Assembly (NCBI GenBank): GCA_035720425.1
Contig: DASTOB010000120.1
Coordinates: forward strand, 229-64,228
Direction of reading: 5' to 3'
DNA length: 64,000 nucleotides
Source of the DNA: Candidatus Limnocylindrales bacterium
GTDB taxonomy: Bacteria > Chloroflexota > Limnocylindria > Limnocylindrales > CSP1-4
Made by a program: the position numbers and the translations under genes. Below the pieces are notes generated by a model. It was given only the letters and a program-made list of their open reading frames with translations, was not told the DNA's origin and did not search any database. The number at the start of each line of letters is the position of its first letter. The first letter of the stretch is position 1. Of the stretch, positions 32,077-51,428 are shown piece by piece.

Positions 32077-34110
32077 GTGAATCCTGTCGACCCGCGTCGG
32101 GAATCGATCGACGACCTCGATCTGCTGCTCGCGGCGCTGCCGCCGGAGATCGTCGACGCGGTGCATGCCCTGCCGGACCGGATCGACCTCATCGAGGTCG
32201 TGCTCGACCTTGGTCGCCGGCCGGAGGCTCGCTTTCCCAACAGCGAGGTGACGCTGCTCGAGCGGGAGGTCGGCGAGCCGGACATCGCCCACGTCGTCGA
32301 GCACATCGGGACGTTCGGCGACGACAATCGGGCCGGGATCGAGCGGACGCTCCATCGGATCAGCGCGATCCGCAACCGCAACGGCAAGATCGTCGGGCTC
32401 ACCTGCCGGATCGGCCGGGCCGTCTACGGCACGATCGAGATCATCAACGACTACGTCGAGAGCGGGAAGTCGATCCTCATCATGGGCCGCCCGGGGATCG
32501 GCAAGACGACGATGCTCCGCGAGGCGGCCCGGGTGCTCGCCGACGACATGGGCAAGCGCGTCGTCGTCGTCGACACGTCGAACGAGATCGCCGGCGACGG
32601 CGACATCCCGCACCCGGCCATCGGCAAGGCCCGCCGGATGCAGGTCCGCACGCCGTCGATGCAGCACGAGGTGATGATCGAGGCGGTCGAGAACCACATG
32701 CCGCAGGTCATCGTCATCGACGAGATCGGCACGGAGCTCGAGGCCCAGGCTGCCCGGACGATCGCCGAGCGCGGCGTCCAGCTCATCGGAACGGCCCACG
32801 GCAACAACCTCGACAACCTCATGCTCAATCCGACGCTCTCGGACCTCATCGGCGGCATCCAGAGCGTGACCCTTGGCGACGAGGAGGCGCGCCGCCGCCG
32901 GACGCAGAAGAGCGTGCTCGAACGGAAGGCCCCGCCCACGTTCGATGTAATCATCGAGATCCAGGACCGCGATCGCGTCCTCGCCCATGCCGACGTCGCC
33001 GACACGGTCGACAACCTGTTGAGGGGCGACCCGGTCGCGCCGGAGCTGCGCTGGCGCGACGACGAGGGCGTCCATCGGTCCCAGTCGCGGCCGCGGCCGT
33101 CACCGCGCGAGCAGCTCGGCACGGAACGCTTCGCCGGGCTCGTGGGGTCCGGCCAGACGTGGCGGATGGAGCCGGGCTGGCGCGGCGAGAGCTCGTATCG
33201 CGGCGGATACCGGGATGCCGGCGGTGGCGGGATCCGACCGGGCTACCGGCCTGGAGCGACCGGTGGCTGGCGCGGGCCGACGCGCTCCGGCGCGGGCGTG
33301 GAGCGGTCCGGCCCCGGCGGGCCGGACGGTGGACGCGGCGCCCCGGCCGCGCTCTCGGACGCACCATTCGTTGCCGGCGACATCGCCGATCGCGGGCCGC
33401 TCGAGCGCGGTGCCGGCCCGACACCGGAGCCGCGTGCGCGTGACGCACGCGAGTTTCAGCGCCAGGAGGCGTGGCGGGATCAGGCGTCACGCGCGCTGAC
33501 CGCGCTGCGCGTGGACGATGGCACCGCGCCGGTCAACGCGGACGACCTCGCCGCCGACGACGAGGCGCTGGCGGACCGCGCGATCGCCGCCGGCCAGGCG
33601 GACGATGGCGAGGCCATCCGCATCGCCGATGCCGGCGGGCTGCCGACGCTCCGAGTCCTGCCGATCGGGATCAGCCGCAAGCGGCTTGAGCAGAGCATCC
33701 GCGAGCTCCAGCTGCCGGTCATCGTCGCCCGCGACGTGGACGACGCGGACGTCGTCATGACGCTCAAGAACGAGTACCGCCAGAAGACGCCAATGCTCCG
33801 CGAGGCGGAGGAGCGGGCGATGCCGATCTACGTCCTCAAGAGCAACACGGTGCTCCAGATGCAGGCCAGCCTCACCTCGATCTTCTCGCTCGAGATCGAC
33901 CCGCGCGAGGCCGCCCTGCGCGAGACCGAGGAGGCGATCGGGATCGTCATGAAGCAGGCCGAGCCGGTCGAGCTGTCGCCCCAGAACGCGTACATCCGGC
34001 GGCTCCAGCACCAGATGGCGGAGCGGGCGAACCTGGTGTCGCGCTCGCGCGGCCGCGAGCCGTACCGCCGGGTGCGGCTATACCCGGACGCGGCGAAGTC
34101 CTGGCGCTGA
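32077..34110 (+). CDS. Ycf45/SpoIIIAA-like AAA ATPase with C-terminal R3H domain
   Basis: [28 protein letters not shown], Walker [23 protein letters not shown]-terminal [14 protein letters not shown] (R3H). Confidence 0.9.
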
Positions 34111-39780: not shown

Positions 39781-40518
39781 TCACCCGCCGCGTCGGCGCA
39801 GCCAGCGCGCGGGTGCGGTGAGCGTGCCGACCGCGGTCGAGAACGCCGGGCTGTGGCGGAGATTCCGCACGTACCGCCACTGGCGACGTCGGTCGACGCA
39901 CACCTTGGTCGTCTCGACCTCCGGCGTTGTCACGCCGAGCGTGCGAGCCAGGTTGGCAAGCGTTCCCACCCAGAAGCGATCGTTCATCCGGTTCGCGCCG
40001 AGCAGGTAGCTGAGCTCGATGAGCGGATCGCTCGTTCGCTCCAGCGCCTGGGCCTGGGCGATCGTGACGTCGCCGTCGCGATACGCGGAAAAGGTGATCC
40101 ATGCCGACAGGGCGTGTCCTTCCGGGGTCATGAACGTGAACGACTCCGCGTCAGCGTAGATGACGAGCACGCCCGTCGACATCCTGACCGGCGCCCCCGG
40201 GACGGCCTGGATCTCGAGCAGCGCGACCTCGCCCGGGGCGATGCCGGCCAGCGGCGCGTAGAACCGGTTGCCCTTCGGCCAGAACGATGGGAACTGCTCC
40301 TTCCAGTGGGCGACAACGTGCTCCGGCGTCGCGTCCGACCCATCGAGCCGAACGCGGAACGTCTTCTGCCACATCTGCCCGAAGCCCTGGACGGGGCCGG
40401 CGACGCGCTTGCCGGTGACGGTGTCCATGCCGGCCCCGGTGGCCGTCGTGGCCAGCCGGTCGACCGGGCGCGCCCACGACTCCCGGTCACGCGGCGTGCG
40501 CGGTTCGGTGGCGGTCAT
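39781..40518 (-). CDS. Conserved hypothetical protein, possibly DUF1990-like
   Basis: AGGAGG RBS. GPVQGFGQMWQK, FTFMTPEGH...WITFSA. Strong coding bias. The family assignment is tentative. Confidence 0.7.
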   Translation of the reverse strand: MTATEPRTPRDRESWARPVDRLATTATGAGMDTVTGKRVAGPVQGFGQMWQKTFRVRLDGSDATPEHVVAHWKEQFPSFWPKGNRFYAPLAGIAPGEVALLEIQAVPGAPVRMSTGVLVIYADAESFTFMTPEGHALSAWITFSAYRDGDVTIAQAQALERTSDPLIELSYLLGANRMNDRFWVGTLANLARTLGVTTPEVETTKVCVDRRRQWRYVRNLRHSPAFSTAVGTLTAPARWLRRRGG

Positions 40519-40577
40519 CACGGTCCTCCTGACTCTGTCCTCGCGATTGCCCCGCGGGGATCCGAATGCCTGGTTCC

Positions 40578-40610
40578 GTTCTACGCGCCGGCCGTCCGGG
40601 AATCGTTACG
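40578..40610 (-). promoter_or_regulatory. SARP-type heptamer direct repeat, site A
   Basis: Minus strand CGTAACG-ATTC-CCGGACG-N9-TAGAAC, inside the 3' end of the membrane gene and upstream of the DUF1990-like gene. Confidence 0.65.
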
Positions 40611-41810
40611 AGCCGTTCCTCGAAGCCAGATGGTGAGCCGACTCGGGGCGACCGCGCCCTCGACGGAATCACTCAGCGAGGCGGCGATCGACGTCGTGTC
40701 GAGCACGCCGCGCAAGCGCAGGCCGAAGGTGTCGACCGTTCGCTGCGCGTCGACCCGCGCCCGGTGGAAGCGCCGGTCGACCGCCGTCTGGACCCGGTGC
40801 CGGACGGGCTGGAAGAGTGCAGCGACCGCGAGCGTGGACCCGGCGACAGCCAGCGTGTTCCCACTCGTCCAGGGCGCGAGCAGACCCTGCAGGCTCACAA
40901 CCAGGATTGCGAACGTCGCGACGAGGATGGCGGTGACGATCGCCCAGCCCAGCGTCCGGCTAATGATCCGATCGATCTCGAAGAGGCGGTAGCGAAGGAC
41001 GGCGATCCCGGTGGCCGTCGGCAGAGCAATCCACGCGACGAAAGCCGGCGCGACGGCGACCAGGAGTGGCCCGACGTTCCTGGTGTCCGTTCCGGGCGCC
41101 ACGCCCGCCACGGCAAAGGAGACAAGGATCGTCAGCACTCCGATCGGCAGCAGGGCAAGCGCCGCGAGGATCCAGCGCAGCTGCAGCCGTTCCGTTCCGC
41201 TCGAGCGACGATACCGCCGCACCAGCGTGAGGAAGCCGGCTGCCCAGAGAACGATCTGGCCGCCGCTCAGAACCGTCCGGTACGGAACGAGGCTCCACGG
41301 CAGCTCGGCCTCGGGAGCGATCGCAACCGGGTTGGGCATTCCTCCGGGGAGGCCGGTCACGTGCGGTGGGTAGATGGTCGGCGCGAAGGCCACGAGCCCG
41401 AACAGGAGGGTCGACAGCGCACACAGGGCTGCCGGGGCACCGCCGACGAACCGGGGCCGGCCACCACCCGGGAAGTCGAGCACGAGGGCGAGGAGTGCGA
41501 CTGCCGCCGCCGGCCAGCCAGACGCCGCAAGCCAGGCGAGGAGGCGGTCGGCGAGCGGCGCGCTTCCGTCCGCCAGCGCCACCGGGTCGCCGGACACTTT
41601 CAGCGTCGCGAACAACCCGGCCCAGCCGATCGCGATGAGCAGCCAACCGACGGCGTTCCACGGGCGTCGGACTGCAAGCAGACCCCCGACGGCGGCGTAG
41701 GGCAGGGAGTAGACGAGCGTCAGGACGTCGCCGGCGGCCAGTGCGAGGGCGACCGCGGCAGCCGTAGCAAGGCCGACGCCGAGGCCGCGCAGCAGGCTGA
41801 GACACGCCAT
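40581..41810 (-). CDS. Multi-TM sensor-like membrane protein ending in a partial GAF (paralog 1)
   Basis: About 9-10 TM helices. VGGLLAVRRPWNAVGW, NPVAI, ERLQLRW, IAVLRYRLFEID, LFQPVRHRVQTAVDRRF, ends AVAPSRLTIWLR...RNDSRTAGA*. Confidence 0.85.
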   Translation of the reverse strand: MACLSLLRGLGVGLATAAAVALALAAGDVLTLVYSLPYAAVGGLLAVRRPWNAVGWLLIAIGWAGLFATLKVSGDPVALADGSAPLADRLLAWLAASGWPAAAVALLALVLDFPGGGRPRFVGGAPAALCALSTLLFGLVAFAPTIYPPHVTGLPGGMPNPVAIAPEAELPWSLVPYRTVLSGGQIVLWAAGFLTLVRRYRRSSGTERLQLRWILAALALLPIGVLTILVSFAVAGVAPGTDTRNVGPLLVAVAPAFVAWIALPTATGIAVLRYRLFEIDRIISRTLGWAIVTAILVATFAILVVSLQGLLAPWTSGNTLAVAGSTLAVAALFQPVRHRVQTAVDRRFHRARVDAQRTVDTFGLRLRGVLDTTSIAASLSDSVEGAVAPSRLTIWLRGTARNDSRTAGA

Positions 41811-41820
41811 CGCACGCGAA

Positions 41821-42177
41821 TCAGGTCCCGACGGCGGCGAGAGCGTCGGCCTGCGAGTCGTGGATCGCGATCGCCTCGTCGAGGCGCGTGAGCGAGAAGA
41901 TCTGGCGGTAGTGCTCGTCGAGCCCGGCCGCCAGCAGCCGCTGGCCGTTGCGCTGCGCGCGCACGAGGAGCGTCACGAGGAGGCCGATGCCGCCGCTGTT
42001 CATGTACTCGAGTCCGCCGAAGTCGAGGATGATCGTGCGCGCGCCGCCGCCGGTCGCCGTCACATAGGCGGCCATGAGCGCCGCCTCGCTGGCGCCGGTG
42101 ACGTCGCCGTCGATCCGGATGACGCTGGCCGTCGGATCGTCGGTCGAGCGCAGGTCGATACGGGTCGGATCGGTCAT
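41821..42177 (-). CDS. STAS-domain anti-sigma factor antagonist (RsbV-like)
   Basis: VIRIDGDVT, IILDFGGLEYMNSGGIGLLV (phospho-Ser), IFSLTRLD. Confidence 0.93.
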   Translation of the reverse strand: MTDPTRIDLRSTDDPTASVIRIDGDVTGASEAALMAAYVTATGGGARTIILDFGGLEYMNSGGIGLLVTLLVRAQRNGQRLLAAGLDEHYRQIFSLTRLDEAIAIHDSQADALAAVGT

Positions 42178-42518
42178 CGGTTCCCCTCCTGCTCGTCGTC
42201 CAGGACCACGTAGTCGGACAGCCTCGTGATCCGGAAGATCTCGCGGTAGTGCTCCGTCAGGTGGACGGCGTGGACCTCGCGGCCATCGCGCCGGGCCTCC
42301 GCAAGGAGGCGGACGATGAGCGCGATGCCGGTGCTGTTGATGTAGCCGACGCCGGCGAAGTCGAGGATGAGCCGCCGGGCGCCGAGCGCGGCCACGCTCA
42401 CGTACGCGTCGGCCAGGCCGGCGTCCGCGGCGACGTCGATGTCGCCGCCGAGCCGGATCCGGACCGCGTCCGGGACCGTCTCCACGTCCGCCCGGAAGCG
42501 GCGGGTCTGCACGTCCAT
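42174..42518 (-). CDS. STAS-domain anti-sigma factor antagonist (RsbV-like)
   Basis: IRLGGDID, LILDFAGVGYINSTGIALIV, IFRITRL. Confidence 0.93.
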   Translation of the reverse strand: MDVQTRRFRADVETVPDAVRIRLGGDIDVAADAGLADAYVSVAALGARRLILDFAGVGYINSTGIALIVRLLAEARRDGREVHAVHLTEHYREIFRITRLSDYVVLDDEQEGNR

Positions 42519-44132
42519 TCAGGACTCCTTGCGGGCGAGTCGCAGGGTGACCGTCTGGCCATCCCCGTCGCTTGCCACGTCCATCTGGTCGACCATGTTT
42601 CGGATGAGGAACAGGCCCCAGCCGCGCGGCTTCTGCTCGCCGGCCAGCTTGGCGTCAATGTCCGGGGCCTCGGCGTCGTCGGGGACCGGGCCCGACAGGG
42701 CCCGATCCGTGATCCGCACGACCACCTCGGCCGGCGTCGCGGCCACGACGAGGTCGACCGGCACGTCCTCGCGTCCAAGGCTCCCGTACTCGATCGCGTT
42801 CATCGTCGCCTCGCTGACGGCGGTCTTGAGCCGCTCGAGGCGGCGGCCGTTCAGCCCGAGGGGTGCGACGACGTCGGCGACCCGGTCCATTGCGCTCCGC
42901 TCGTTGCCGATCGCACCGGGCACGGAGAACGCCGCGAGCAGCTCCTCGCCCGGGTCCGCCCCGGCCGGTTCGGCGGCGGCGACCTCGCCGGCGCGGCGCA
43001 GGGCGACCATCGTGATGTCGTCCTCCTGCTCCCAGGTCGGTCCGGTGAACGCATGCAGGTGTTCGAGGACCCGATCGATGACATCGGACCCCGGAACGTC
43101 GAGCGTTGCGAATTCGTCGCGCAGGCGCGGGAAGCCGTACATCTCGCGCTCCGGGCCGTGGGCCTCGACGACCCCGTCGGAGTAGAGGAGGACGGTCGAT
43201 CCGGGTTGAATGACGGCCTCGGTCTCCTCGTACGCAACCCCAGCGAGCAGCCCAAGCGGCATGCCGGTGGCCCGGATTTCGGTGACCCGGTCGGCCGAGC
43301 GCACGTACGGCAGGTTGTGCCCGGCATTGGCGATGACCATCCGTCCCGATGCCGGTTCGAGGAACACGAGCAGGCACGTGACGAACATGCGGTTCGGCAT
43401 CTCCGGCACGAGCAATTCATTCGCCCGCGCGAGCACGGCGCCCGGCGACGGCGACCGCGACGCCTCGGCCCGCAGGATCGAATGGGTGCGGGCCATGACG
43501 AGCGCGGCCGGCACGCCCTTGTCGGTCACGTCGCCGACGACGATCGCGATCCGTCCGTCCGGCAGCTCGATGAAGTCGTAGAAGTCGCCGCCCACGGCGC
43601 GCGCGGGTCCGTAGTACGCGGCGACCTGCCACTCGGGGAGCCGCGGCAGGTCGCGCGGGAGGAACTGCTGCTGGATGAGCGTGGCGACCCGGAGCTCTTG
43701 GTCGATCCGCTCGCGCTCTGCCGCTTCGGCGGCCTGTTCCTGGACGAGCTGGGCGACGCGGATCGCGGGGGCCGCCTGGGCGGCCAGCGTGGCGAGGAGC
43801 CGCCGGTCGTCGGTCGAGTATTCCTGCTCCGACAGGCGTGGCCCCAGGTACAGGGCCCCGATCAACTCGCCGGACGTGACGAGGGGAACGATCAGCGAGA
43901 TGCCGGCGGCGCGCAGTTCGGCCAGGGCCGGGGAGGCGAGCTCGAGGCGGTAGACGTCGACCGCGCCGCTCGCGCCCTGGAGGTAGGCGAAGAGGGGGTC
44001 CGACGGCGCGATCTCGACGGCCGGCGCCTCAGAGACGGTCGGCACGGCAACTGGCTTGGCCACGACGGGTGCCTGGAGCGCGGTGTCGCCACCGAGTCCG
44101 ATGGTCCGGCGAATGGTGCGGAGCAACGTCAT
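42519..44132 (-). CDS. Partial GAF + SpoIIE/RsbU PP2C phosphatase + RsbW-type HATPase fusion
   Basis: GAF C-half SLIVPLVTSGELIGALYLG...DRRLLATLAAQAAPAI. PP2C VGGDFYD, GDVTDKG, LYSDGVVE, EDDITMV. RsbW AVSEATMNAIEYG, RGWGLFLIRNMVD. Confidence 0.92.
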   Translation of the reverse strand: MTLLRTIRRTIGLGGDTALQAPVVAKPVAVPTVSEAPAVEIAPSDPLFAYLQGASGAVDVYRLELASPALAELRAAGISLIVPLVTSGELIGALYLGPRLSEQEYSTDDRRLLATLAAQAAPAIRVAQLVQEQAAEAAERERIDQELRVATLIQQQFLPRDLPRLPEWQVAAYYGPARAVGGDFYDFIELPDGRIAIVVGDVTDKGVPAALVMARTHSILRAEASRSPSPGAVLARANELLVPEMPNRMFVTCLLVFLEPASGRMVIANAGHNLPYVRSADRVTEIRATGMPLGLLAGVAYEETEAVIQPGSTVLLYSDGVVEAHGPEREMYGFPRLRDEFATLDVPGSDVIDRVLEHLHAFTGPTWEQEDDITMVALRRAGEVAAAEPAGADPGEELLAAFSVPGAIGNERSAMDRVADVVAPLGLNGRRLERLKTAVSEATMNAIEYGSLGREDVPVDLVVAATPAEVVVRITDRALSGPVPDDAEAPDIDAKLAGEQKPRGWGLFLIRNMVDQMDVASDGDGQTVTLRLARKES

Positions 44133-44138
44133 GACGGT

Positions 44139-44171
44139 GTTCTACGCCTCCTTCGTCCGGAAATCGTTACG
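44139..44171 (-). promoter_or_regulatory. SARP-type heptamer direct repeat, site B
   Basis: CGTAACG-ATTT-CCGGACG-N9-TAGAAC-N6-ATG(44132). Confidence 0.7.
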
Positions 44172-45410
44172 GGATCGGAGCCACACACCGGCGGCAGCCG
44201 GGCTCATGGCGGCACCAACGGTGTTCTTGAAGTCGCCCTCGAGATCAGCCAGGTCGAGCTGTGAGCGCAGCCGCTCGCCGAACGCGGCCGCGACGCGCTC
44301 GCCGTCGTAGCGCGCCCGGTCGAAGCGCCGGTCGACCACGCGCTGGACCCTCGAGCGGAGTGGTGCGAACAGCGCGGCAACGACCAGCGTCGAGCCGGCT
44401 ACCGCGAGGGTGTCCCCTCCCGTGATCGATCCGAGGAGGTTGGACAGTCCGACGACGAGGATGATGAACGAGCCGACCAGCGCTCCGCTGACGATCGTCC
44501 ACGCGATCGTCCGGCTGATGATCCGGTCGATGTCGAACAAGCGATAGCGCAGGATCGCGGCCCCGATGGCCAGCGGCAGGGCTAGCACACCGAAGTACGC
44601 GAGGACGGCCGTAATGAGGATCCCGTCATCGACGCGCAGGGCAGACTCGATGGCAGTTCCGACAAATGCCACGATCACGAAACCCATTGCCGCGAGCAAC
44701 CAGCGGATCTGCAGGCGCTCGACGACGGTCCCGCGGCGATACCGGGTCACGAGCCCGAGCGCGCCGAAGGCGATCACCGCGATCAGTTGAAGCAGCAGGC
44801 TGTCGGCGAGGGGTGCCAGCGCCGCCGGCCAGCCCACCAATCCGAACGGATTGCCGCCGCCGCCCTCGAACAGCGGACCCGGGCGAAGCGCCAGTGCCGC
44901 CAGGCTCGTGCTCGTGATCCCGATGATCGCCAGCGATGGCGCGCGCCAGCGCGGCGACGGCAGCGTTCCCGTGGGGAAGAGAAGCGGCAGCCAACCGACG
45001 ATGAGGGCCATGCCCGGGTAGGAGAGCAGGAGCCCAGCCCACTGGATCACGCCGGCGGTCCCCCGGTCGGCCCCAGGCGTCAGCTCGCCACCGGCCGTCC
45101 AGATCAGCCCCAGCAGGGCGAACAGGGGGCCGCACAGCAGCATCAACAGGCCGATCGCGTGGCCGGGACGGCGCCACGCGATCACCGCTCCGACGAGCGA
45201 GAACAGCAGCGCGGTCGCGTTGAAGACGAGGACGAGCGCGATCGGCTCGACACCACCCGACTCACGCCGCGCATTGAGGCTGAGCAGGGCAACGGACAGA
45301 CCAAGCGACGCGGCGATCGAGGCCACCATCGCGGCGACCGCGAGTGGGCCGGGGCGGTGCTTGACCGACCCTCGCGGGTCATCTTGGCGCAGCGATCGTG
45401 TCGCGCTCAT
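44142..45410 (-). CDS. Multi-TM sensor-like membrane protein ending in a partial GAF (paralog 2)
   Basis: VGAVIAWRRPGHAIG, FPTGTLPSPRWR, NPFG, ERLQIRW, ILRYRLFDID, LFAPLRSRVQRVVDRRF, ends AMSPAAAGVWLRSRNDFRTKEA*. Start re-assigned to ATG 45410. Confidence 0.87.
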   Translation of the reverse strand: MSATRSLRQDDPRGSVKHRPGPLAVAAMVASIAASLGLSVALLSLNARRESGGVEPIALVLVFNATALLFSLVGAVIAWRRPGHAIGLLMLLCGPLFALLGLIWTAGGELTPGADRGTAGVIQWAGLLLSYPGMALIVGWLPLLFPTGTLPSPRWRAPSLAIIGITSTSLAALALRPGPLFEGGGGNPFGLVGWPAALAPLADSLLLQLIAVIAFGALGLVTRYRRGTVVERLQIRWLLAAMGFVIVAFVGTAIESALRVDDGILITAVLAYFGVLALPLAIGAAILRYRLFDIDRIISRTIAWTIVSGALVGSFIILVVGLSNLLGSITGGDTLAVAGSTLVVAALFAPLRSRVQRVVDRRFDRARYDGERVAAAFGERLRSQLDLADLEGDFKNTVGAAMSPAAAGVWLRSRNDFRTKEA

Positions 45411-45456: not shown

Positions 45457-45660
45457 TCATCGTTCCACCCGGGCGCGTGGCCGCAGCCAAATGTCCGCGC
45501 CAAACGGTCGGACCGCGCGGTGCGCGGTCGTGACTACCAGTTCGATCGGTCCCGACGATCGCTGCTTCAGGGTCAGGCCGCCGATCGGAATTGCCACGGA
45601 CACCACACATGCGGGCAGCCAGGGAGCGGCGACGTCGGGCCGAACGCTGTCGATGCGCAC
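45457..45660 (-). CDS. Putative 67-aa microprotein carrying only the AVxP-x5-WLR half-GAF tail
   Basis: VRIDSV...TTAHRAVRPFGADIWLRPRARVER* has the same P(+6)W-L-R spacing as the three membrane paralogs. Its GTG sits exactly 6 nt after the hexamer position of SARP site C. Confidence 0.55.
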   Translation of the reverse strand: MRIDSVRPDVAAPWLPACVVSVAIPIGGLTLKQRSSGPIELVVTTAHRAVRPFGADIWLRPRARVER

Positions 45661-45666
45661 GTCAGG

Positions 45667-45699
45667 AGTTTCTCCGAGAAACGTTCCGGGAACGTTACG
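45667..45699 (-). promoter_or_regulatory. SARP-type heptamer direct repeat, site C (divergent intergenic region)
   Basis: CGTAACG-TTCC-CGGAACG-N9-GAAACT-N6-GTG(45660). The regulator's own TACCGT-N6-GTG lies 20 bp away on the + strand. Confidence 0.7.
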
Positions 45700-45730: not shown

Positions 45731-48688
45731 GTGCCTGGTTCGGATCGCCTCGACATCCGGCTGCTCGGCCCGCTCGAGATCGTGGCGGACGGCCGGCCAC
45801 TCGTCGTTGACACGCGCAAGGCGCTCGCGATCGTGGCGCTCCTCGCCGCGGAGCGTCGATCGTTCGCACGGGAGGAGCTGGCGGCGCTGCTCTGGCCGGA
45901 CGCGGACGACGAGTCGGCCCGCGGGGCCCTGCGTCGCACGCTGTCGTCGCTGCGTGCGGCGCTTGGGGGCCGATGGCTGCGCGCGGATCGCTCGACCGTC
46001 GGGCTCGACCCGGACGGCGTGTCGGTCGACCTCGATCGGGCTACGGCCGTTGCGGCAGGCGGGTCTGTCGGCGACCTCGCCGCCGCGGCGGACCTGCATC
46101 GTGGCCCGTTCATGGCCGGCTTCACCCTGCGCGACGCGCCGGAGTTCGACGACTGGCAGGCGGCCCGCGCGACTGCCGTCGCCGCCCAATTCGCCGGGCT
46201 GCTCGATCGACTCACGTCGGCCTTGCACGAGGCGGGCGATGCGGCCGGGGCCGTGGCGGCGGCGCGTCGGAGGATCGACCTCGACCCGCTCGACGAGGGC
46301 GGTCAGCGACGGCTCATCGAACTCCTCGCCGCGACGGGCGATCGATCCGGGGCCATTCGCCAGTACCGCGCCTGTGTCGCCGTGCTCGAGGCGGAGCTCG
46401 GGGTCCCGCCGCTGGCCGAGACCACCGAACTCTACGAACGCGTCCGGGACGACCGGGTCAGCACGTCAGCCGCGGTCGCGCCGCTGACTTCACCACCTTC
46501 GCCGGTTGCCGGAGCTCCGCGCCTTCCGGCTGCCGATGCACCACCATTCGTGGGCCGCGCCGGCGAACTCGAGACCCTGCTCGCAGCCCACGGCGCGGTC
46601 GACCGCGACGGCGCGCTCGCGATCGTCGAGGGCGAGGTCGGGATCGGCAAGACCCGCCTCGCGGAGGTGTTCAGCGACGCCGTGCGTCGCCGCGGCGCGC
46701 GCGTGCTCGGTGCGCGCTGCTATCCGGGCGAGCAGTCGGTCGCCTACGGTCCGATCATCGCGCTGCTCCGAGCCGGCCTGGCGCTGCCGGGCGGCGCGGA
46801 CCGGCTCGCCTCGCTCTCGGAGGTGGCGCGAACCGCCCTCACATCCCTCGATCCGGCGGTGAGCGCCGGCGGCGGACGTCGTGGCCGATCGCTCGTCCCC
46901 CTCGACGAGGGTGCCGCCCGCGCGCGATTGCTCGACGCGATCGCCGACGGGTTGACCGCCCTCACGGTGGGTGACGCAGCGGGGCTGGTCTGGCTCGACG
47001 ACGTCAACTGGGCGGACGAGGCGACGCTCGAGACGATCGCCTACCTCGGCCGCCGCCTCGCCGGCCGGTCGCTGCTCGTGCTCGTGACGTGGCGGCGCGA
47101 GGACCTCGACGGCATCGCGCTCCAGACGGTCGCCGGATTCGAGCGGACCGCCCGCGCCCACGTCCGTCTGCGGCGACTCGACCGAGATGCCGTTGCATCG
47201 CTCATCGGCGCCCTCGCCCCCGACGAGTCACGGCAGCCCGGCGTGATCGACGCGCTCGCGACGCGATCCGAAGGCGTTCCGCTGTACATCGTCGAGGCGC
47301 TTGCCGCTCCACGGCCGTCGGCCGCACCTGCGATCGCAACGGCGACGGCTACCGCCATTCCGCCTGGCGTGCGGGCGCTCGTCGCCGAGCGGCTGGCGTC
47401 GCTCGATGGTGCAGCCGGGCAGTTGATCGCGGCCGCCGCGGTGATCGGCCGATCGTTCGACGCGGGGATGTTGCGGCACGTCAGCGGCCGAACGGAAGAC
47501 GAGGTGATCGACGGCCTCGACCGGCTCGTGCGCCGGGGGTTCGTGCGCGAAACGGCGACCGCGACCGTGCGCGAGCCTGCGTTCGACTTCGTCCACGGCA
47601 GCGTTCGCGAGGTCGTCCTCGAGGGTTCCAGCCTGACCCGGAAGCGCCTCCTCCACCGGCGTGTCGCCGAGGCGGTCGCCGCCAGGCCGGTCGCTTCGCT
47701 CGGCGAGCCTGCCGTCGTCGACCGGCTCGACGGTTCCGTGGCGGCGTCGGCCGCGGTTCACCTCCGTGATGCCGGCCACGATCGCGAGGCTGCCCTGGCC
47801 TTTGCCAGGGCAGCAGACCATGCGCGATCGGTCCACGCCAACGCGGAGGCGGCCGAGCTCGCCCGGTCGGCGCTGGCACTCGGGCACCCGGACCCGGCCC
47901 GACTCCACGTCGTCCTCGGCGACATCGCCACGCTGTCCGGACGCTACGGAGAGGCGATTGCCGAATTCGAGGGCGCGGCGGCCGCCGCGTCAGCCGCGTC
48001 AGCCACGTCACCCGCGTCGACCTTGTCGGCCGCGTCGGCCGACGACGAGGCCCGGGACCGCCTGGCCGACCTCGAGCATCGGCTCGCCCTCGTCCATCAG
48101 CGCCGTGGCGATCCCGACACGGCCGACACCCACTTCGTCGCCGCGCTCGAGTTGACCGCCGACCGAGCGACGCGGGCGCGCATCCTCGCCGACCGGAGCC
48201 TCGGCGCGCATCTCGCGGGTCGGGGCGAGCAGGCCGCCGCGCTGGCGGCCGACGCGCTTGCCGCGTCCGACGAGTCCGGTGACGACCTCGCGCGGGCCAG
48301 GGCGGCCAACGTTGCCGGCGTCCTGGCCACCGAGCGCGGCGATCCCGCCGCGGGGCGGGTGCTTATCGAGCGGAGCCTCGCCCTCGCCGAGGCACGCGGC
48401 GAGATCCCGGCTCGGATCGCCGCCCTCAACAACCTCGCGCGCGCGGTGGCGGCGACCGGAGACGTCGACCTCGCGATCGAGTTCACCGATCTCGCCCTCG
48501 GCCTGTGCCGCTCGATCGGCGATCGACACCGCGAGGCGGCCCTCCACAACCATCGGGCCGACCTGCTCCGCGAGGCGGGGCGGCGTGACGCGGCCATCGA
48601 CGAGCTGAAGCAGGCGGTGGCGATCTTCGCCGATGTCGGCGAGCCGGGGGAGCTCGAGCCAGGCAAGTGGCGCCTGGCCACGTGGTGA
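45731..48688 (+). CDS. AfsR/SARP-family transcriptional activator (OmpR-type wHTH, BTAD, STAND AAA, TPR)
   Basis: IRLLGPLEI...RKALAIVALL...REELAALLWPD...ARGALRRTLSSLR. BTAD HRGPFMAG...FDDW...DPLDE...AIRQY...LGVPP. Walker A GEVGIGKT, WLDDVNWAD, EGVPLY. TPRs. GTG 45731 is preceded by TACCGT-N6. Confidence 0.93.
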   Translation: MPGSDRLDIRLLGPLEIVADGRPLVVDTRKALAIVALLAAERRSFAREELAALLWPDADDESARGALRRTLSSLRAALGGRWLRADRSTVGLDPDGVSVDLDRATAVAAGGSVGDLAAAADLHRGPFMAGFTLRDAPEFDDWQAARATAVAAQFAGLLDRLTSALHEAGDAAGAVAAARRRIDLDPLDEGGQRRLIELLAATGDRSGAIRQYRACVAVLEAELGVPPLAETTELYERVRDDRVSTSAAVAPLTSPPSPVAGAPRLPAADAPPFVGRAGELETLLAAHGAVDRDGALAIVEGEVGIGKTRLAEVFSDAVRRRGARVLGARCYPGEQSVAYGPIIALLRAGLALPGGADRLASLSEVARTALTSLDPAVSAGGGRRGRSLVPLDEGAARARLLDAIADGLTALTVGDAAGLVWLDDVNWADEATLETIAYLGRRLAGRSLLVLVTWRREDLDGIALQTVAGFERTARAHVRLRRLDRDAVASLIGALAPDESRQPGVIDALATRSEGVPLYIVEALAAPRPSAAPAIATATATAIPPGVRALVAERLASLDGAAGQLIAAAAVIGRSFDAGMLRHVSGRTEDEVIDGLDRLVRRGFVRETATATVREPAFDFVHGSVREVVLEGSSLTRKRLLHRRVAEAVAARPVASLGEPAVVDRLDGSVAASAAVHLRDAGHDREAALAFARAADHARSVHANAEAAELARSALALGHPDPARLHVVLGDIATLSGRYGEAIAEFEGAAAAASAASATSPASTLSAASADDEARDRLADLEHRLALVHQRRGDPDTADTHFVAALELTADRATRARILADRSLGAHLAGRGEQAAALAADALAASDESGDDLARARAANVAGVLATERGDPAAGRVLIERSLALAEARGEIPARIAALNNLARAVAATGDVDLAIEFTDLALGLCRSIGDRHREAALHNHRADLLREAGRRDAAIDELKQAVAIFADVGEPGELEPGKWRLATW

Positions 48689-48728: not shown

Positions 48729-49949
48729 TCAGCCGTCGCCCCGCCCGGCGCGCAGCCAGAGCGCGATCCGATCCGGCTCGACGGCGCTCGCGGCGACGGC
48801 CACTGATCGCTCTCGCAGCGTGGCGAGGTCGACCTCGTCACGCAGGTGGTCGGCGAACGCCGCGGCCAATCGCTCCGCGTCGAACCGCGCGCGGTGGAAG
48901 CGCCGATCGACGGCGCGCTGCGTCCGGGCCCGGACGGGCGCGAAGAGGCCCGCCACGAGCAAGGTCGACGCAGCGACGACGAGCGTGTCTGCCTGGACGA
49001 TCGGAGCCAGCACCCCCTGGAGGACGAGGTTCGCGCCGAGGAACACGATCGTCAGGACGGCCGTTACCGCCGCGTAGCCGATCGTCCGGCTGACGATGCG
49101 GTCGATCTCGTACAGCCGGTAGCGAAGGATCGCGATCCCGATCCCGATCGGGATGAGCAGTGGCGAGACGACGACGAGGATCAAGGCGACCGTCGCGATT
49201 GGATCGCTCCAGTTCGAGACGAACAGGATCGCCATGCCGGACGCGGCCGCCGCGGCCGCGGACAGCACCCAGCGGATCTGCGCGCGGACGCGAGGGGACG
49301 ACCGTCGGTACGTCACGAGCGAGGCAGCAAGCGACAGGAGCGCTGCGAGGCTGAGGAAGCGGGGTGCCCATTCGGCCGCCAGATCGAAGACCTCCACGGG
49401 GAGACTGAAGATGGCAATCGGGTTGGCCGAAATGAGGATCCACGAGATCGGCACCTCACCCGGACGCCAGAGCTGGAGTGCCTGGAGTACGGCGAAGACG
49501 ACGATCAGTGCATCGATGATCCGCCACTGCCTGCCCGGTAGGCGGCCGTCCGGAAACCGGGCCAGGATCACCACGATCCCGACGAGGCCGAACCATTGCA
49601 GGTACGCGGTCAGGTTCGCGCCGACGATCAGGACCGCCGGCAATCGTCCTGGCGCTACGTCGGCAATCGCGACGATCGCCACGATGGCGAGCTGCACGCC
49701 AAGCACAAGGCCGGTCGCGAGGCAGATCCGACCGATCACGTTGCCCGGCCGCCGGGACACGATGAGCGCTCCGACCATCGTGAAGCCGACCGCCAGCGCG
49801 GGCGACCAGACCAGCTCGGTCACGTCGGCGTAACCGCGTCGAATGAACACCACGACCCAGATGCCGATGATCGCGACGGCGATCGCGAACAGCAGGGCGA
49901 GCAGGAGCCCCCGCAATCTCCACGCTGCGCGATCGGGCGGGGCGATCAC
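48729..49949 (-). CDS. Multi-TM sensor-like membrane protein ending in a partial GAF (paralog 3)
   Basis: VGALIVSRRPGNVIG, FPDGRLPGRQWR, NPIAI, RAQIRW, IAILRYRLYEID, LFAPVRARTQRAVDRRF, ends AVEPDRIALWLRAGRGDG*. GTGA-coupled to the nucleoside hydrolase gene. Confidence 0.87.
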   Translation of the reverse strand: MIAPPDRAAWRLRGLLLALLFAIAVAIIGIWVVVFIRRGYADVTELVWSPALAVGFTMVGALIVSRRPGNVIGRICLATGLVLGVQLAIVAIVAIADVAPGRLPAVLIVGANLTAYLQWFGLVGIVVILARFPDGRLPGRQWRIIDALIVVFAVLQALQLWRPGEVPISWILISANPIAIFSLPVEVFDLAAEWAPRFLSLAALLSLAASLVTYRRSSPRVRAQIRWVLSAAAAAASGMAILFVSNWSDPIATVALILVVVSPLLIPIGIGIAILRYRLYEIDRIVSRTIGYAAVTAVLTIVFLGANLVLQGVLAPIVQADTLVVAASTLLVAGLFAPVRARTQRAVDRRFHRARFDAERLAAAFADHLRDEVDLATLRERSVAVAASAVEPDRIALWLRAGRGDG

Positions 49950-51388
49950 TCGGCCACCTCAAACGACGCCGCGAGGCCATAGGTGAGGTTGGGCAACTCT
50001 CCCGTGATGCACAACCCGCGGAACGATCCGTCCCTGACCTCGACGAGCCCGGAGCCGGTGGCGTTCCTCTCCGCTTCGGCGAAACCGGCGATGAGCACCC
50101 AGCTCGGCGGCTGCCCGCCCTCCTCGCCAGCAAGCTCGGCGAGCAGCGTCTCGAACTCGGCCCACCCGTGGGGTGGCTGAATGCCGACGACGACCAGTCC
50201 GGCGGGCCCCGACGTCTCGTTCACGAGGTGGGCACGGTACATCCCGGCTTGGGCGGGCGTCGAGCCCTCCGCTGAGCAGGTCCTACCGTCCCATCGGACG
50301 GTCATGTCGCCGCGGATGGCGAAGGGATCCGCTCGCGGTCCCCCGCGGCGGAGCGCCTGAAGCAGCGCGGCCTCGACCGCCGGCCGATCGGCCGCCGTGG
50401 CGAACCGGATCGGCCGGCCGGCGGGATCGCGATCGATCCGACCGGCGGCGGTCGCGCTGACCGTCGCATCCGCCCACGTGACGAGGTCCTGATCGGAGAC
50501 CGCGAGCGCGGCGAGTTCGTCCCACAGCTGGCCACCGGGAAGCGACAGGCGCTCCGGGAACCGGACGAGCAGCTCGTAGGCGAGGTCCGCGCCCGCGGCC
50601 GCGTGATCCTCCTCGAGGCGTTCGAGGAGGTCTGGCGGGACGGGCACGTCATCGGTCGCGTCGAGCGGGACGAGCGTGACCGGGACGTCGAGCGCGAGGA
50701 CCGCGGTGAACGCGTCGGCATCGGCCACGACGTTCCACTCCAGCCGGTCCGCCTCGGCCACGCCGTCGACGAGGACGTTGCCGGGCGCGTCGATCGCGCC
50801 GGCCATCGCGTGGATGCCCGCCACGTCGTCGACGAGCGCAGGGTCGGCCGCGAACGCATCAGCGATGTTCGTCCACGGACCCAGGGCAATGATCGTGATC
50901 GGCTCCGCGCTCGCGGCGATGACCCGCGCGATGAGGTCGGCCGCCTCCTCGGGAATCCCGGCTTCGACCACCGGTGGAATGTCGAGGCCGTACGCGCCGT
51001 CGGCCTGATCGCGCCACTCGGCTGGGAACGGTCGGCCATTCGGTCCGATGCTCTCGCGCCCGCAGGCGAACGGGACGTCCGTCCGCTCGAGCTGCTCGAG
51101 CAGGTAGCGGGTCACCCGTCGGCCGCCCGCGCAGTGCACGAGCCCGGTCCCGTCGATCGCGATGGCCCGGACGTCGAGCGCCGGGTCTCGCAGTAGGACG
51201 GCGACCGCGAACAGGTCGCTGATGTCCATGTCCGCGTCGACGATGACCGGTCGGGGCAGTCCGGACGGTGGCTCCGCTACGGGCGGCAGGCTGGGAGACG
51301 TCGTCGACGGCGAGCACGCGGCGGCGAGACCAGTTGCCCAGAGCGCGGCGGTGACGAGCAGGCCGAAACGACGGTTCCGTGGGTTCAT
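49946..51388 (-). CDS. Lipoprotein nucleoside hydrolase (IU-NH fold) with extra C-terminal domain
   Basis: Lipobox GLAAA|C. VIVDADMDISD (DxDxxxDD variant), IALGPWTNIA, MAGAI...GN, EWNVVAD, LVPLDAT, LWDELAA. Confidence 0.85.
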   Translation of the reverse strand: MNPRNRRFGLLVTAALWATGLAAACSPSTTSPSLPPVAEPPSGLPRPVIVDADMDISDLFAVAVLLRDPALDVRAIAIDGTGLVHCAGGRRVTRYLLEQLERTDVPFACGRESIGPNGRPFPAEWRDQADGAYGLDIPPVVEAGIPEEAADLIARVIAASAEPITIIALGPWTNIADAFAADPALVDDVAGIHAMAGAIDAPGNVLVDGVAEADRLEWNVVADADAFTAVLALDVPVTLVPLDATDDVPVPPDLLERLEEDHAAAGADLAYELLVRFPERLSLPGGQLWDELAALAVSDQDLVTWADATVSATAAGRIDRDPAGRPIRFATAADRPAVEAALLQALRRGGPRADPFAIRGDMTVRWDGRTCSAEGSTPAQAGMYRAHLVNETSGPAGLVVVGIQPPHGWAEFETLLAELAGEEGGQPPSWVLIAGFAEAERNATGSGLVEVRDGSFRGLCITGELPNLTYGLAASFEVAE

Positions 51389-51395
51389 GCCGCAC

Positions 51396-51428
51396 AGGAA
51401 AGCGGTCCGCCGCTACGGACTCGTTACG
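51396..51428 (-). promoter_or_regulatory. SARP-type heptamer direct repeat, site D
   Basis: CGTAACG-AGTC-CGTAGCG-N9-TTTCCT-N7-ATG(51388). The first heptamer contains the upstream gene's TAA. Confidence 0.6.

What the first reader, a model, noticed from the sequence alone, without database searches (positions are those of the whole stretch)
44130..44147. A single in-frame TAG separates the membrane sensor from the GAF-PP2C-RsbW gene
Seen on the minus strand: ...GAG GCG TAG AAC ACC GTC ATG ACG. The sensor stop (44144-44142) is in frame with the downstream ATG (44132), so readthrough would give one receptor-phosphatase-kinase of about 960 aa. Paralog 1 ends in the same RND(S/F)RTxxA-TAG-AAC sequence, which argues against a recent nonsense mutation or a sequencing error. 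Three readings are possible: programmed amber readthrough giving fused and split isoforms; a fission scar; or TAGAAC conserved as the -10 element of an internal promoter.
Basis: partly seen in the sequence, partly recalled or inferred. Interest (0 to 1): 0.68.

Follow-up and report, generated by a model that had tools for sequence, protein, structure and literature searches.

The report
Stop codon inside a conserved promoter box
The in-frame TAG between the membrane sensor gene and the phosphatase-kinase gene is an ordinary stop codon that is also the first three bases of a conserved promoter-like DNA element in front of the downstream gene, so it is not a recoding site.

Summary
TAG (44144-44142, minus strand) lies 9 nt upstream of, and in frame with, ATG 44132 of a GAF-SpoIIE(PP2C)-HATPase gene. 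Sensor paralog 1 ends in the same RNDxRT..A-TAG-AAC.

The shared sequence is conserved as DNA, not as protein. It is a bipartite element: CGTAACG-N4-CCGGACG, 9 nt, a -10-like hexamer (here TAGAAC), then 6 nt to the ATG. In 78 species-level loci, mostly Chloroflexota (Ca. Limnocylindrales) MAGs, 74 carry this box upstream of the phosphatase start. The upstream sensor ORF lies in frame 0, +1 or +2 in 14, 16 and 18 loci. It usually ends before the box (30 loci), at the TAA inside GTAACG (12) or at the TGA of ATGA (4). It ends at the hexamer TAG in only 2, plus this genome.

The box geometry matches published SARP/AfsR promoters. An AfsR-like regulator gene sits divergently next to the island in every genome that has it.

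TAG is a normal stop in this genome (21% of long ORFs). RF1 is present, no tRNA-CUA was found, and the region has no RNA structure.

The two genes are the split form of a single-chain protein known from Actinomycetota, and the split falls inside the GAF domain. Programmed readthrough is unsupported. Interest is low.

The parts
44142..45410 (-). Membrane sensor paralog 2 (multi-TM, no Pfam family). The ORF runs into the downstream promoter-like element and stops at its TAG. The start at ATG 45410 is provisional; TTG 45503 is the longest ORF.
44154..44171 (-). Box B: CGTAACG-ATTT-CCGGACG, two heptamers 11 bp apart. In this genome it is translated as the sensor tail R-N-D-F-R-T.
44139..44144 (-). 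-10-like hexamer TAGAAC, 9 nt after the box and 6 nt before the ATG. Its first three bases are the sensor's stop codon, the TAG of the finding.
44130..44132 (-). ATG start of the GAF-PP2C-kinase gene. The conserved N-terminus MTxIxxxRR begins here in all orthologues.
42519..44132 (-). GAF (truncated at its N-terminal side)-SpoIIE/PP2C phosphatase-HATPase_c_2 (RsbW-like kinase), 537 aa.
42174..42518 (-). STAS protein a.
41821..42177 (-). STAS protein b.
40581..41810 (-). Membrane sensor paralog 1. It ends RNDSRTAGA-TAG because it runs into box A.
40578..40610 (-). Box A (CGTAACG-ATTC-CCGGACG, 40593-40610) plus N9 plus TAGAAC (40578-40583). It lies upstream of the conserved 246-aa gene, which has its own AGGAGGA ribosome-binding site.
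39781..40521 (-). Conserved 246-aa protein of unknown function (U246), the last gene of the island in relatives.
45658..45699 (-). Box C: CGTAACG-TTCC-CGGAACG, N9, GAAACT, 6 nt, GTG. It lies upstream of a 67-codon ORF and sensor 2, and is divergent from the regulator gene.
51386..51428 (-). Box D: CGTAACG-AGTC-CGTAGCG, N9, TTTCCT, 7 nt, ATG of the nucleoside hydrolase gene that precedes sensor paralog 3.
45731..48688 (+). AfsR-like large SARP regulator (wHTH+BTAD, AAA_16/NOD, TPR), divergent from the sensor array. The start is approximate.

Best explanation
The TAG is an ordinary stop codon. It is in frame with the next ATG, and repeated at paralog 1, because it is the first three bases of a conserved DNA element that precedes the downstream gene. 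The element consists of two heptamers 11 bp apart (CGTAACG-N4-CCGGACG), 9 nt, a -10-like hexamer (TAGAAC here; GAGGAT, CAGCAT, TACAAC and others in relatives), and then 6 to 10 nt to the start codon. With TAGAAC and a 6-nt gap, TAG is 12 nt from the ATG, so it is in frame by geometry alone. In this 72% G+C genome stop codons are rare. An upstream ORF that drifts into the element is closed by whichever A+T-containing motif fits its frame: TAA in GTAACG, TAG in TAGAAC, or TGA in ATGA. Sensor 2 and sensor 1 happen to be in the TAG frame, so the box is translated as RND(F/S)RT. Inferred, not shown: the element is a promoter activated by the AfsR-like SARP regulator encoded divergently next to the island. 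That regulator would bind the two heptamers over the -35 region, and transcription would start at or within a few bases of the start codon (leaderless or nearly so). This would give the phosphatase-kinase/STAS operon its own regulated promoter inside the sensor array. The confidence of 0.8 is a blend: about 0.9 that the TAG is a plain stop embedded in a conserved DNA element and not a recoding site, and about 0.65 that the element is a SARP-activated promoter.
For: Shown by comparison:
- The same box and hexamer stand at a fixed 10-nt distance in 39 non-redundant instances. Positions not fixed by the search pattern are also conserved: the C before GTAACG, an A/T-rich N4, and A at hexamer position 2 at 2.4 bits.
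- 74 of 78 species-level loci have the box upstream of the phosphatase start. The hexamer-to-start gap is 6, 7, 9 or 10 nt in 67 of them.
- The adjacent sensor frame is 0, +1 or +2 in 14, 16 and 18 loci. The sensor stop lies upstream of the box in 30 loci, at the TAA in GTAACG in 12, at the TGA of ATGA in 4, and at the hexamer TAG in 2 (examples).
- A hexamer TAG is in frame with the start in 16 loci but is the sensor's stop in only 2. TAGAAC is therefore conserved independently of any stop-codon role.
- The box also precedes the first sensor of the arrays, U246 and detached sensor arrays.

For the SARP link:
- The regulator has BTAD, AAA_16 and TPR domains. Its first 240 aa match EmbR 2FEZ at E=2e-8.
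- Orthologues lie divergently next to the array in 8 of 8 loci examined.
- Orthologues occur in exactly the 9 of 41 related genomes that have the phosphatase gene.
- Published SARP promoters have direct repeats 11 bp apart that overlap a poor -35. The 3' repeat lies about 8 bp from a suboptimal -10, and the -35 to -10 spacer is 20 bp (PMC10936776, PMC11301090). If +1 is the A of the ATG, the heptamers here end at -33 and -22, as do the AfsR-contacted segments.

Against recoding:
- TAG ends 21% of long coding-like ORFs in this genome.
- prfA is present above its cut-off.
- None of the 45 tRNAs has a CUA anticodon.
- The junction RNA folds no better than shuffles, z=0.01, and there is no Rfam hit.
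Against: - Promoter function, the SARP as the binding factor and the leaderless start are all inferences.
- TAGAAC has C, not T, at the last -10 position.
- The second heptamer of boxes A and B (CCGGACG) resembles the first in only 4 of 7 positions. Boxes C and D are clearer, at 6 of 7.
- By my delimitation the 3' heptamer is 9 nt, not 8 bp, from the hexamer.
- AAGGAGG lies 14 nt upstream of the ATG. It might serve as a distant ribosome-binding site on read-through transcripts, which would not fit a purely leaderless model.
- A basal, unprogrammed level of amber readthrough cannot be excluded by sequence analysis.
Confidence: 0.8

Rival explanations
1. Programmed amber readthrough: a regulated fraction of ribosomes decode the TAG and make a roughly 960-aa single-chain receptor-phosphatase-kinase alongside the two separate proteins.
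For: The TAG is in frame. The conceptual fusion aligns end to end with natural single-chain proteins, for example P0125, at 45% identity over 917 columns, so a fused product would probably fold and work. The same in-frame TAG arrangement occurs in G023 (L009/L112) and in one Actinobacteria MAG (L160).
Against: The frame relation is random among orthologues (14:16:18). The linker length is not a multiple of 3 in many loci, and its residues vary. There is no stimulatory RNA structure and no Rfam hit. RF1 is present, no tRNA-CUA was found, and TAG is a common stop. TAGAAC is equally conserved where the sensor ends earlier.
Confidence: 0.03
2. Fission scar: the TAG is the nonsense mutation, or its remnant, that split an ancestral single-chain gene. 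The in-frame relation is inherited from that event.
For: Single-chain sensor-GAF-PP2C-HATPase proteins exist in Actinomycetota and are colinear with sensor 2 plus the phosphatase. The break falls inside the GAF domain. In P0125, Pfam GAF and GAF_3 cover residues 378-500 with the full model. In this genome the phosphatase matches only model positions 33/39-127, and the missing N-terminal part aligns to the sensor tail.
Against: Relative to the single-chain form, a 42-residue insertion sits at the junction, carrying the box, the hexamer and a new conserved N-terminus. This is not a point mutation. The TAG is part of the conserved hexamer and is present where the sensor stops upstream. Frames among relatives are random, so the in-frame state here is expected by chance in a third of lineages. 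All 78 loci examined are already split, so the event is old.
Confidence: 0.05
3. The conserved element is real but is not a SARP-activated promoter. It could be a promoter for an alternative (ECF-type, GTAAC -35) sigma factor, an operator of another regulator, or a signal acting on the mRNA.
For: GTAACG resembles the -35 motifs reported for some ECF sigma factors (my recollection of mycobacterial and corynebacterial SigD, not checked here). No binding data exist. The heptamer repeat is imperfect in boxes A and B.
Against: The distance from GTAACG to the downstream conserved hexamer is 20 nt, too long for the 16-18 nt I recall for ECF promoters. The hexamer has the A at position 2 and often the T at position 6 of housekeeping-type -10 elements. 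No sigma gene travels with the island, whereas the SARP gene always does. The distance to the start codon differs for U246 (about 57 nt), which fits a DNA signal better than an mRNA signal. There is no RNA structure.
Confidence: 0.12
4. Translational coupling: the close in-frame stop exists so that ribosomes finishing the sensor reinitiate at the ATG 9 nt downstream.
For: The stop is 9 nt from the start. AAGGAGG lies upstream. There is no terminator between the genes. ATGA overlaps occur in 4 relatives.
Against: In most relatives the sensor ends 40 to 250 nt upstream of the start, or no sensor is adjacent, so coupling is not a conserved feature. It may operate here as a side effect and is compatible with the best explanation.
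Confidence: 0.1

Closest known systems
SARP/AfsR-dependent promoters of Streptomyces (afsS promoter 'afs box'; DnrI, ActII-ORF4 and PimR heptamer repeats)
   Same: Direct heptamer repeats with 11-bp periodicity overlap a poor -35. They stand at a fixed short distance from a suboptimal -10, with a 20-nt -35 to -10 spacing. A large SARP (wHTH+BTAD+NOD+TPR) is encoded next to its targets (PMC10936776, PMC11301090, PMC10972967).
   Different: The host is Chloroflexota (Ca. Limnocylindrales), whereas a 2024 review states SARPs are exclusive to actinobacteria. The predicted targets are a signalling island, not an antibiotic cluster. The repeat sequence is CGTAACG/CCGGACG. The 3' repeat to -10 distance is 9 nt by my count. 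Binding is untested.
Single-chain membrane sensor-GAF-SpoIIE-HATPase proteins of Actinomycetota (e.g. P0125, P0223; 'ATP-binding SpoIIE family protein phosphatase')
   Same: They are colinear with sensor 2 plus the phosphatase-kinase at 45% identity over 917 columns and have the same domain order.
   Different: Here the chain is cut inside the GAF domain, with a promoter-like box and a new N-terminus inserted. The sensor half is multiplied: 6 stand-alone copies in this genome and a dozen or more in G023.
RsbU/RsbW/RsbV-type partner-switching modules with fused phosphatase and kinase (M. tuberculosis Rv1364c, as I recall it)
   Same: A PP2C phosphatase and an RsbW-like kinase sit on one chain, with STAS partners encoded next to it.
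   Different: No sigma factor gene lies in the island. The input domain is split off. This comparison rests on my knowledge of the family and was not tested here.
Programmed stop-codon readthrough (recoding)
   Same: Only the in-frame stop between two ORFs that would make a sensible fusion.
   Different: None of the expected signatures is present. There is no conserved frame, no coding constraint on the linker, no context or structure signal, and no decoding machinery.

Membership tests
Programmed stop-codon readthrough site | The in-frame relation of the two ORFs is conserved among orthologues. | tested here: not met
   Sensor frame relative to the phosphatase is 0, +1 or +2 in 14, 16 and 18 of 48 adjacent pairs. 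The hexamer TAG is the sensor stop in 2 of 78 loci.
Programmed stop-codon readthrough site | The stretch between the stop and the downstream ORF evolves as coding sequence. | tested here: not met
   The gap from hexamer to start is 6, 7, 9 or 10 nt, and the 6 nt after TAGAAC are not conserved.
Programmed stop-codon readthrough site | A stimulatory context, a downstream RNA structure, or dedicated decoding machinery (suppressor or Pyl tRNA; loss of RF1). | tested here: not met
   Fold z-score is 0.01 and there is no Rfam hit. None of the 45 tRNAs has a CUA anticodon, though the MAG is only 87% complete. prfA scores 488 bits, above its cut-off. TAG ends 21% of long ORFs.
Programmed stop-codon readthrough site | The readthrough product is detected. 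| not testable with these tools
   This needs proteomics, Ribo-seq or a reporter.
SARP-dependent promoter | Direct (heptamer) repeats spaced one helical turn (11 bp) apart. | tested here: met
   CGTAACG-N4-CCGGACG in boxes A and B (4 of 7 shared). CGTAACG-N4-CGGAACG in box C and CGTAACG-N4-CGTAGCG in box D (6 of 7 shared).
SARP-dependent promoter | [quoted passage not shown] | tested here: met
   A fixed 9 nt separates the second heptamer from the hexamer in 39 instances, within 1 nt of the published figure. With +1 at the ATG, the heptamers end at -33 and -22. No sigma-70 consensus promoter is found. The TSS is assumed, not measured.
SARP-dependent promoter | A cognate SARP (OmpR-type wHTH plus BTAD) is encoded with the targets. 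| tested here: met
   BTAD E=1e-16. Trans_reg_C is only weak, E=0.024. EmbR 2FEZ residues 9-256 are matched at E=2e-8. The gene is adjacent and divergent in 8 of 8 loci. Its phyletic pattern is identical to that of the phosphatase, 9 of 41 genomes.
SARP-dependent promoter | The regulator binds the repeats and activates transcription. | not testable with these tools
   This needs EMSA or footprinting, in vitro transcription or a reporter.
Leaderless mRNA start | The -10 lies 6 to 8 nt upstream of the start codon and no ribosome-binding site is used. | tested here: inconclusive
   The gap is 6 or 7 nt in 39 of 74 loci and 9 or 10 nt in 28. But AAGGAGG lies 14 nt upstream in this genome, U246 has a roughly 57-nt leader with AGGAGGA, and there are no TSS data.
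Split gene (fission of a single-chain signalling protein) | The two adjacent ORFs are colinear with one ORF in other lineages, and the break falls inside a domain. | tested here: met
   P0125 matches at 45% identity over 917 columns, with one 42-residue gap at the junction. The GAF model is covered fully in P0125 but only from position 33/39 in the phosphatase here.

The most novel reading that the evidence does not exclude
The TAG is leaky. A small fraction of ribosomes read through it and produce a single-chain receptor-GAF-phosphatase-kinase in which the two halves of the split GAF domain are joined in cis, as in the one-gene homologues of Actinomycetota. This cis-wired minority isoform would coexist with a hub phosphatase that is otherwise shared in trans among several output-less sensor paralogs.
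Probability: 0.03. Interest if true: 0.7.

Novelty: new member of a known kind. Interest (0 to 1): 0.22.

Why it matters
For genome scanning, this is a clean example of a trap. In high-G+C genomes, A+T-containing regulatory motifs supply the first available stop codons. Upstream ORFs therefore end inside promoters, and paralogs acquire 'conserved' C-terminal peptides and in-frame stops that look like recoding signals.

The underlying biology is more interesting than the TAG itself. It comprises a predicted AfsR-like SARP regulon outside the Actinobacteria and a sensor-phosphatase pair split inside a GAF domain. Both were raised in separate first-stage notes and need experiments before they can be accepted.

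Tried and rejected
- **Apparent natural fusions in relatives.** The 'open_frame_aa' values of 899 to 1140 for G018, G011 and G021 looked like fusions. Reading the junctions showed chance open frames of high-G+C DNA, with the sensor in another frame or a stop 16 codons upstream.
- **Long database proteins covering both halves.** P0007 (1410 aa), P0122 and P0124 contain Arg/Pro-rich out-of-frame stretches. The one P0124 contig checked has frameshifts. I did not count them as real fusions. P0121 (L089) is an in-frame fusion lacking the box, but it lies on a 3.4-kb scaffold whose 3' part is also disrupted.
- **SigB/SigF-type promoter (GTTT-N-GGGTA).** GGGTAG occurs in some loci, but the -35 part is not conserved and the array promoters have different hexamers.
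- **ECF SigD-like promoter (GTAACG...CGAT).** The spacing is too long by my count. It is kept only as a minor rival.
- **RNA-level element.** There is no Rfam family and no fold better than shuffles.
- **Sigma-70 consensus and terminator scan.** Nothing was found.
Full report
**Observation.** On the minus strand the sensor ORF (45410/45503 to 44142) ends GAG GCG TAG. AAC ACC GTC follows, then ATG 44132 of a 537-aa protein with GAF, SpoIIE (PP2C) and HATPase_c_2 domains. The stop and the start are in the same frame, and reading through would give 963 aa from ATG 45410. Downstream lie two STAS genes, a second sensor paralog (40581-41810, 40% identical to the first) and a 246-aa gene of unknown function. 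Paralog 1 ends RNDSRTAGA-TAG-AAC. GCNTAGAAC is found 3 times in the window against 0.32 expected.

**The shared tail is conserved as DNA, not as protein.** This genome is a 3.0-Mb MAG with 87% completeness. It has six stand-alone sensor paralogs and one fused to a histidine kinase. Four of the stand-alone copies end a few residues after a conserved (V/I)W(L/I)R with unrelated tails and TGA. Only paralogs 1 and 2 carry the RNDxRT tail. In a DNA alignment of their 3' ends, the region before the tail is poorly conserved. CGTAACGATT(T/C)CCGGACG and GCGTAGAAC are then identical except for one base, including the rare codons CGT and GAT.

**Orthologous junctions.** I searched relatives with the conceptual fusion, reading stops through, and printed the junctions in three frames. 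Every orthologue of the phosphatase gene has the same block upstream of its ATG. The block is CGTAACG-N4-CCGGAC(G), ten bases after the 16-mer a hexamer, then 6 to 9 bases and the ATG. In G022, G020, G003 and G011 the block is intergenic, because the sensor has already ended at TGA in another frame. In G018 the sensor reads across it in the +1 frame and ends at the TGA of ATGA. Only in this genome and in G023 does the sensor read it in frame 0 and stop at the TAG. In G003 the hexamer is TAGAAA with a 7-nt gap, so its TAG is out of frame with the ATG.

**A larger sample.** This used 78 species-level genomes. Most record titles name Chloroflexota or Candidatus Limnocylindrales. A few loci, at 56-62% identity, come from Actinomycetota, including Thermoleophilia. 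The counts are:
- The box is present in 74 of 78 loci.
- Hexamers: GAGGAT 19, TAGAAC 12, CAGCAT 5, TACAAC 5, TAGAAA 5, and others, almost all with A at position 2.
- Gap from hexamer to start: 6 nt in 25 loci, 9 in 21, 7 in 14, 10 in 7.
- Adjacent sensor frame: 0 in 14 loci, +1 in 16, +2 in 18.
- Sensor stop: upstream of the box in 30 loci, the TAA inside GTAACG in 12, the TGA of ATGA in 4, the hexamer TAG in 2.
- A hexamer TAG is in frame with the start in 16 loci but is the sensor's stop in only 2.

The three A+T-containing motifs lie in three different frames: TAA at box position 1, TAG at position 26, and TGA one base into the ATG. Together they close every frame of an ORF that runs into the region. 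In a 72% G+C genome this explains why sensors so often end exactly there.

**What the element is.** The same box also stands elsewhere in the island:
- In front of the first sensor gene of the arrays in relatives.
- In front of U246 when that gene is separate (L079; box A here).
- In front of a detached sensor paralog on contig C137 of this genome.
- Upstream of sensor 2, as CGTAACG-TTCC-CGGAACG (45699-45682).
- Upstream of the nucleoside hydrolase/sensor 3 pair, as CGTAACG-AGTC-CGTAGCG (51428-51411).

In 39 non-redundant instances the box-to-hexamer distance is fixed, while the distance to the start codon varies from 6 to about 57 nt. Positions not imposed by the search pattern are informative. 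This is the behaviour of a promoter, not of a coding or mRNA signal.

A roughly 985-aa gene with BTAD, AAA_16 and TPR domains lies divergently next to the array. Its N-terminal 240 residues match the SARP-family regulator EmbR (2FEZ, E=2e-8). Orthologues are adjacent and divergent in all eight loci examined. They occur in exactly the nine of 41 related genomes that have the phosphatase orthologue.

Published work describes SARP targets as direct repeats 11 or 22 bp apart. The 3' repeat lies 8 bp from a weak -10. The repeats overlap a poor -35, and the -35 to -10 spacer is 20 bp. AfsR contacts -40 to -33 and -29 to -22 (PMC10936776, PMC11301090). If transcription starts at the A of ATG 44132, the heptamers here span -39 to -33 and -28 to -22 and the hexamer spans -12 to -7.

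I therefore read the element as a SARP-activated promoter with a leaderless or near-leaderless start. This is an inference from geometry and synteny. A first-stage note on the same window (e1-5242354, seen, after I had found the box) proposes the same regulon. That note is not independent evidence, but the comparative tests above bear it out.

**Against recoding.**
- TAG ends 231 of 1113 long coding-like ORFs in this genome.
- prfA is present above its curated cut-off.
- None of the 45 tRNAs found has a CUA anticodon.
- The 101-nt junction folds no better than shuffles, z=0.01.
- Rfam finds nothing at the junction.

**Fission.** A region-restricted protein search found many single proteins covering 97 to 100% of the junction region. 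P0125 (919 aa, Actinomycetota MAG) aligns with the conceptual fusion over 917 columns at 45% identity. The one large gap is 42 residues, exactly at the junction. In P0125 the Pfam GAF and GAF_3 models are covered completely by residues 378-500. In this genome the phosphatase matches only model positions 33/39 onwards, and the missing N-terminal segment aligns with the sensor tail around VWLR.

The gene pair is therefore the split form of a single-chain sensor-GAF-PP2C-kinase, cut inside the GAF domain. The box, the hexamer and a new conserved N-terminus (MTxIxxxRR) are inserted at the cut. This supports the 'fission' reading as history. It also agrees with the split-GAF note e1-5242352. But the TAG is part of the inserted element, not a nonsense scar. 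All 78 loci are already split and their frames are random.

Several long 'fused' database proteins from close relatives carry out-of-frame stretches, and the one contig checked has frameshifts. One short scaffold (L089) has an in-frame fusion without the box.

**Verdict.** The TAG is an ordinary stop that coincides with the -10-like hexamer of a conserved, probably SARP-dependent, promoter for the phosphatase-kinase/STAS operon.
- Confidence that it is not a programmed recoding site: about 0.9.
- Confidence that the element is a SARP-activated promoter: about 0.65.
- Residual probability of functional readthrough: about 0.03.

Noticed in passing
window 45457-45660 (-): A 67-codon ORF starts at a GTG placed exactly 6 nt after the hexamer of box C. 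It encodes only a sensor-tail-like sequence (...AVRPFGADIWLRP...). It could be a remnant or a small stand-alone 'tail' protein.
   Followed up: partly
window 44142-44420 and 43750-44132 (-): The gene boundary cuts a GAF domain. The sensor tail aligns with the first roughly 30 positions of the GAF model as covered in single-chain homologues, and the phosphatase has only the rest. With 6 stand-alone sensors and one phosphatase, this suggests complementation in trans.
   Followed up: partly
window 45731-48688 (+): An AfsR-like large SARP occurs in a Chloroflexota (Ca. Limnocylindrales) genome. A 2024 review states that SARPs are exclusive to actinobacteria (PMC10972967).
   Followed up: partly
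G023:C97:1215-16002 (relative): A tandem array of about a dozen sensor paralogs lies next to the regulator gene. Arrays of 2 to 6 copies occur in other genera.
   Followed up: no
window 51386-51428 and 48729-51388 (-): Box D precedes an inosine-uridine nucleoside hydrolase gene whose end overlaps the start of sensor paralog 3. An enzyme therefore appears to belong to the same predicted regulon.
   Followed up: no
genome contigs C5:2401, C87:2904, C154:26219: A repeated sequence, ctgGTAACGG(G/A)ATCCGGATGAA(T/C)GAGCGTGGCC..., occurs in three copies. It is unrelated to the box despite sharing GTAACG...CCGGA, and is possibly a mobile element end or a repeated RNA.
   Followed up: no
L089 (ENA scaffold, 674-2866): In one metagenome scaffold the sensor and the phosphatase are joined in frame with no box and no stop (...VWLREPVSMRPTMTELTRP...). 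This may be a secondary re-fusion or an assembly artefact.
   Followed up: partly
genome contig with tRNA-SeC (aragorn record 33466-33562, complement): A selenocysteine tRNA (UCA) is present, so TGA recoding may occur somewhere in this genome. This is not relevant to the TAG.
   Followed up: no
window 39781-40521 (-): The 246-aa protein without a Pfam family is conserved (52-76% identity) as the last gene of the island in all relatives examined.
   Followed up: no
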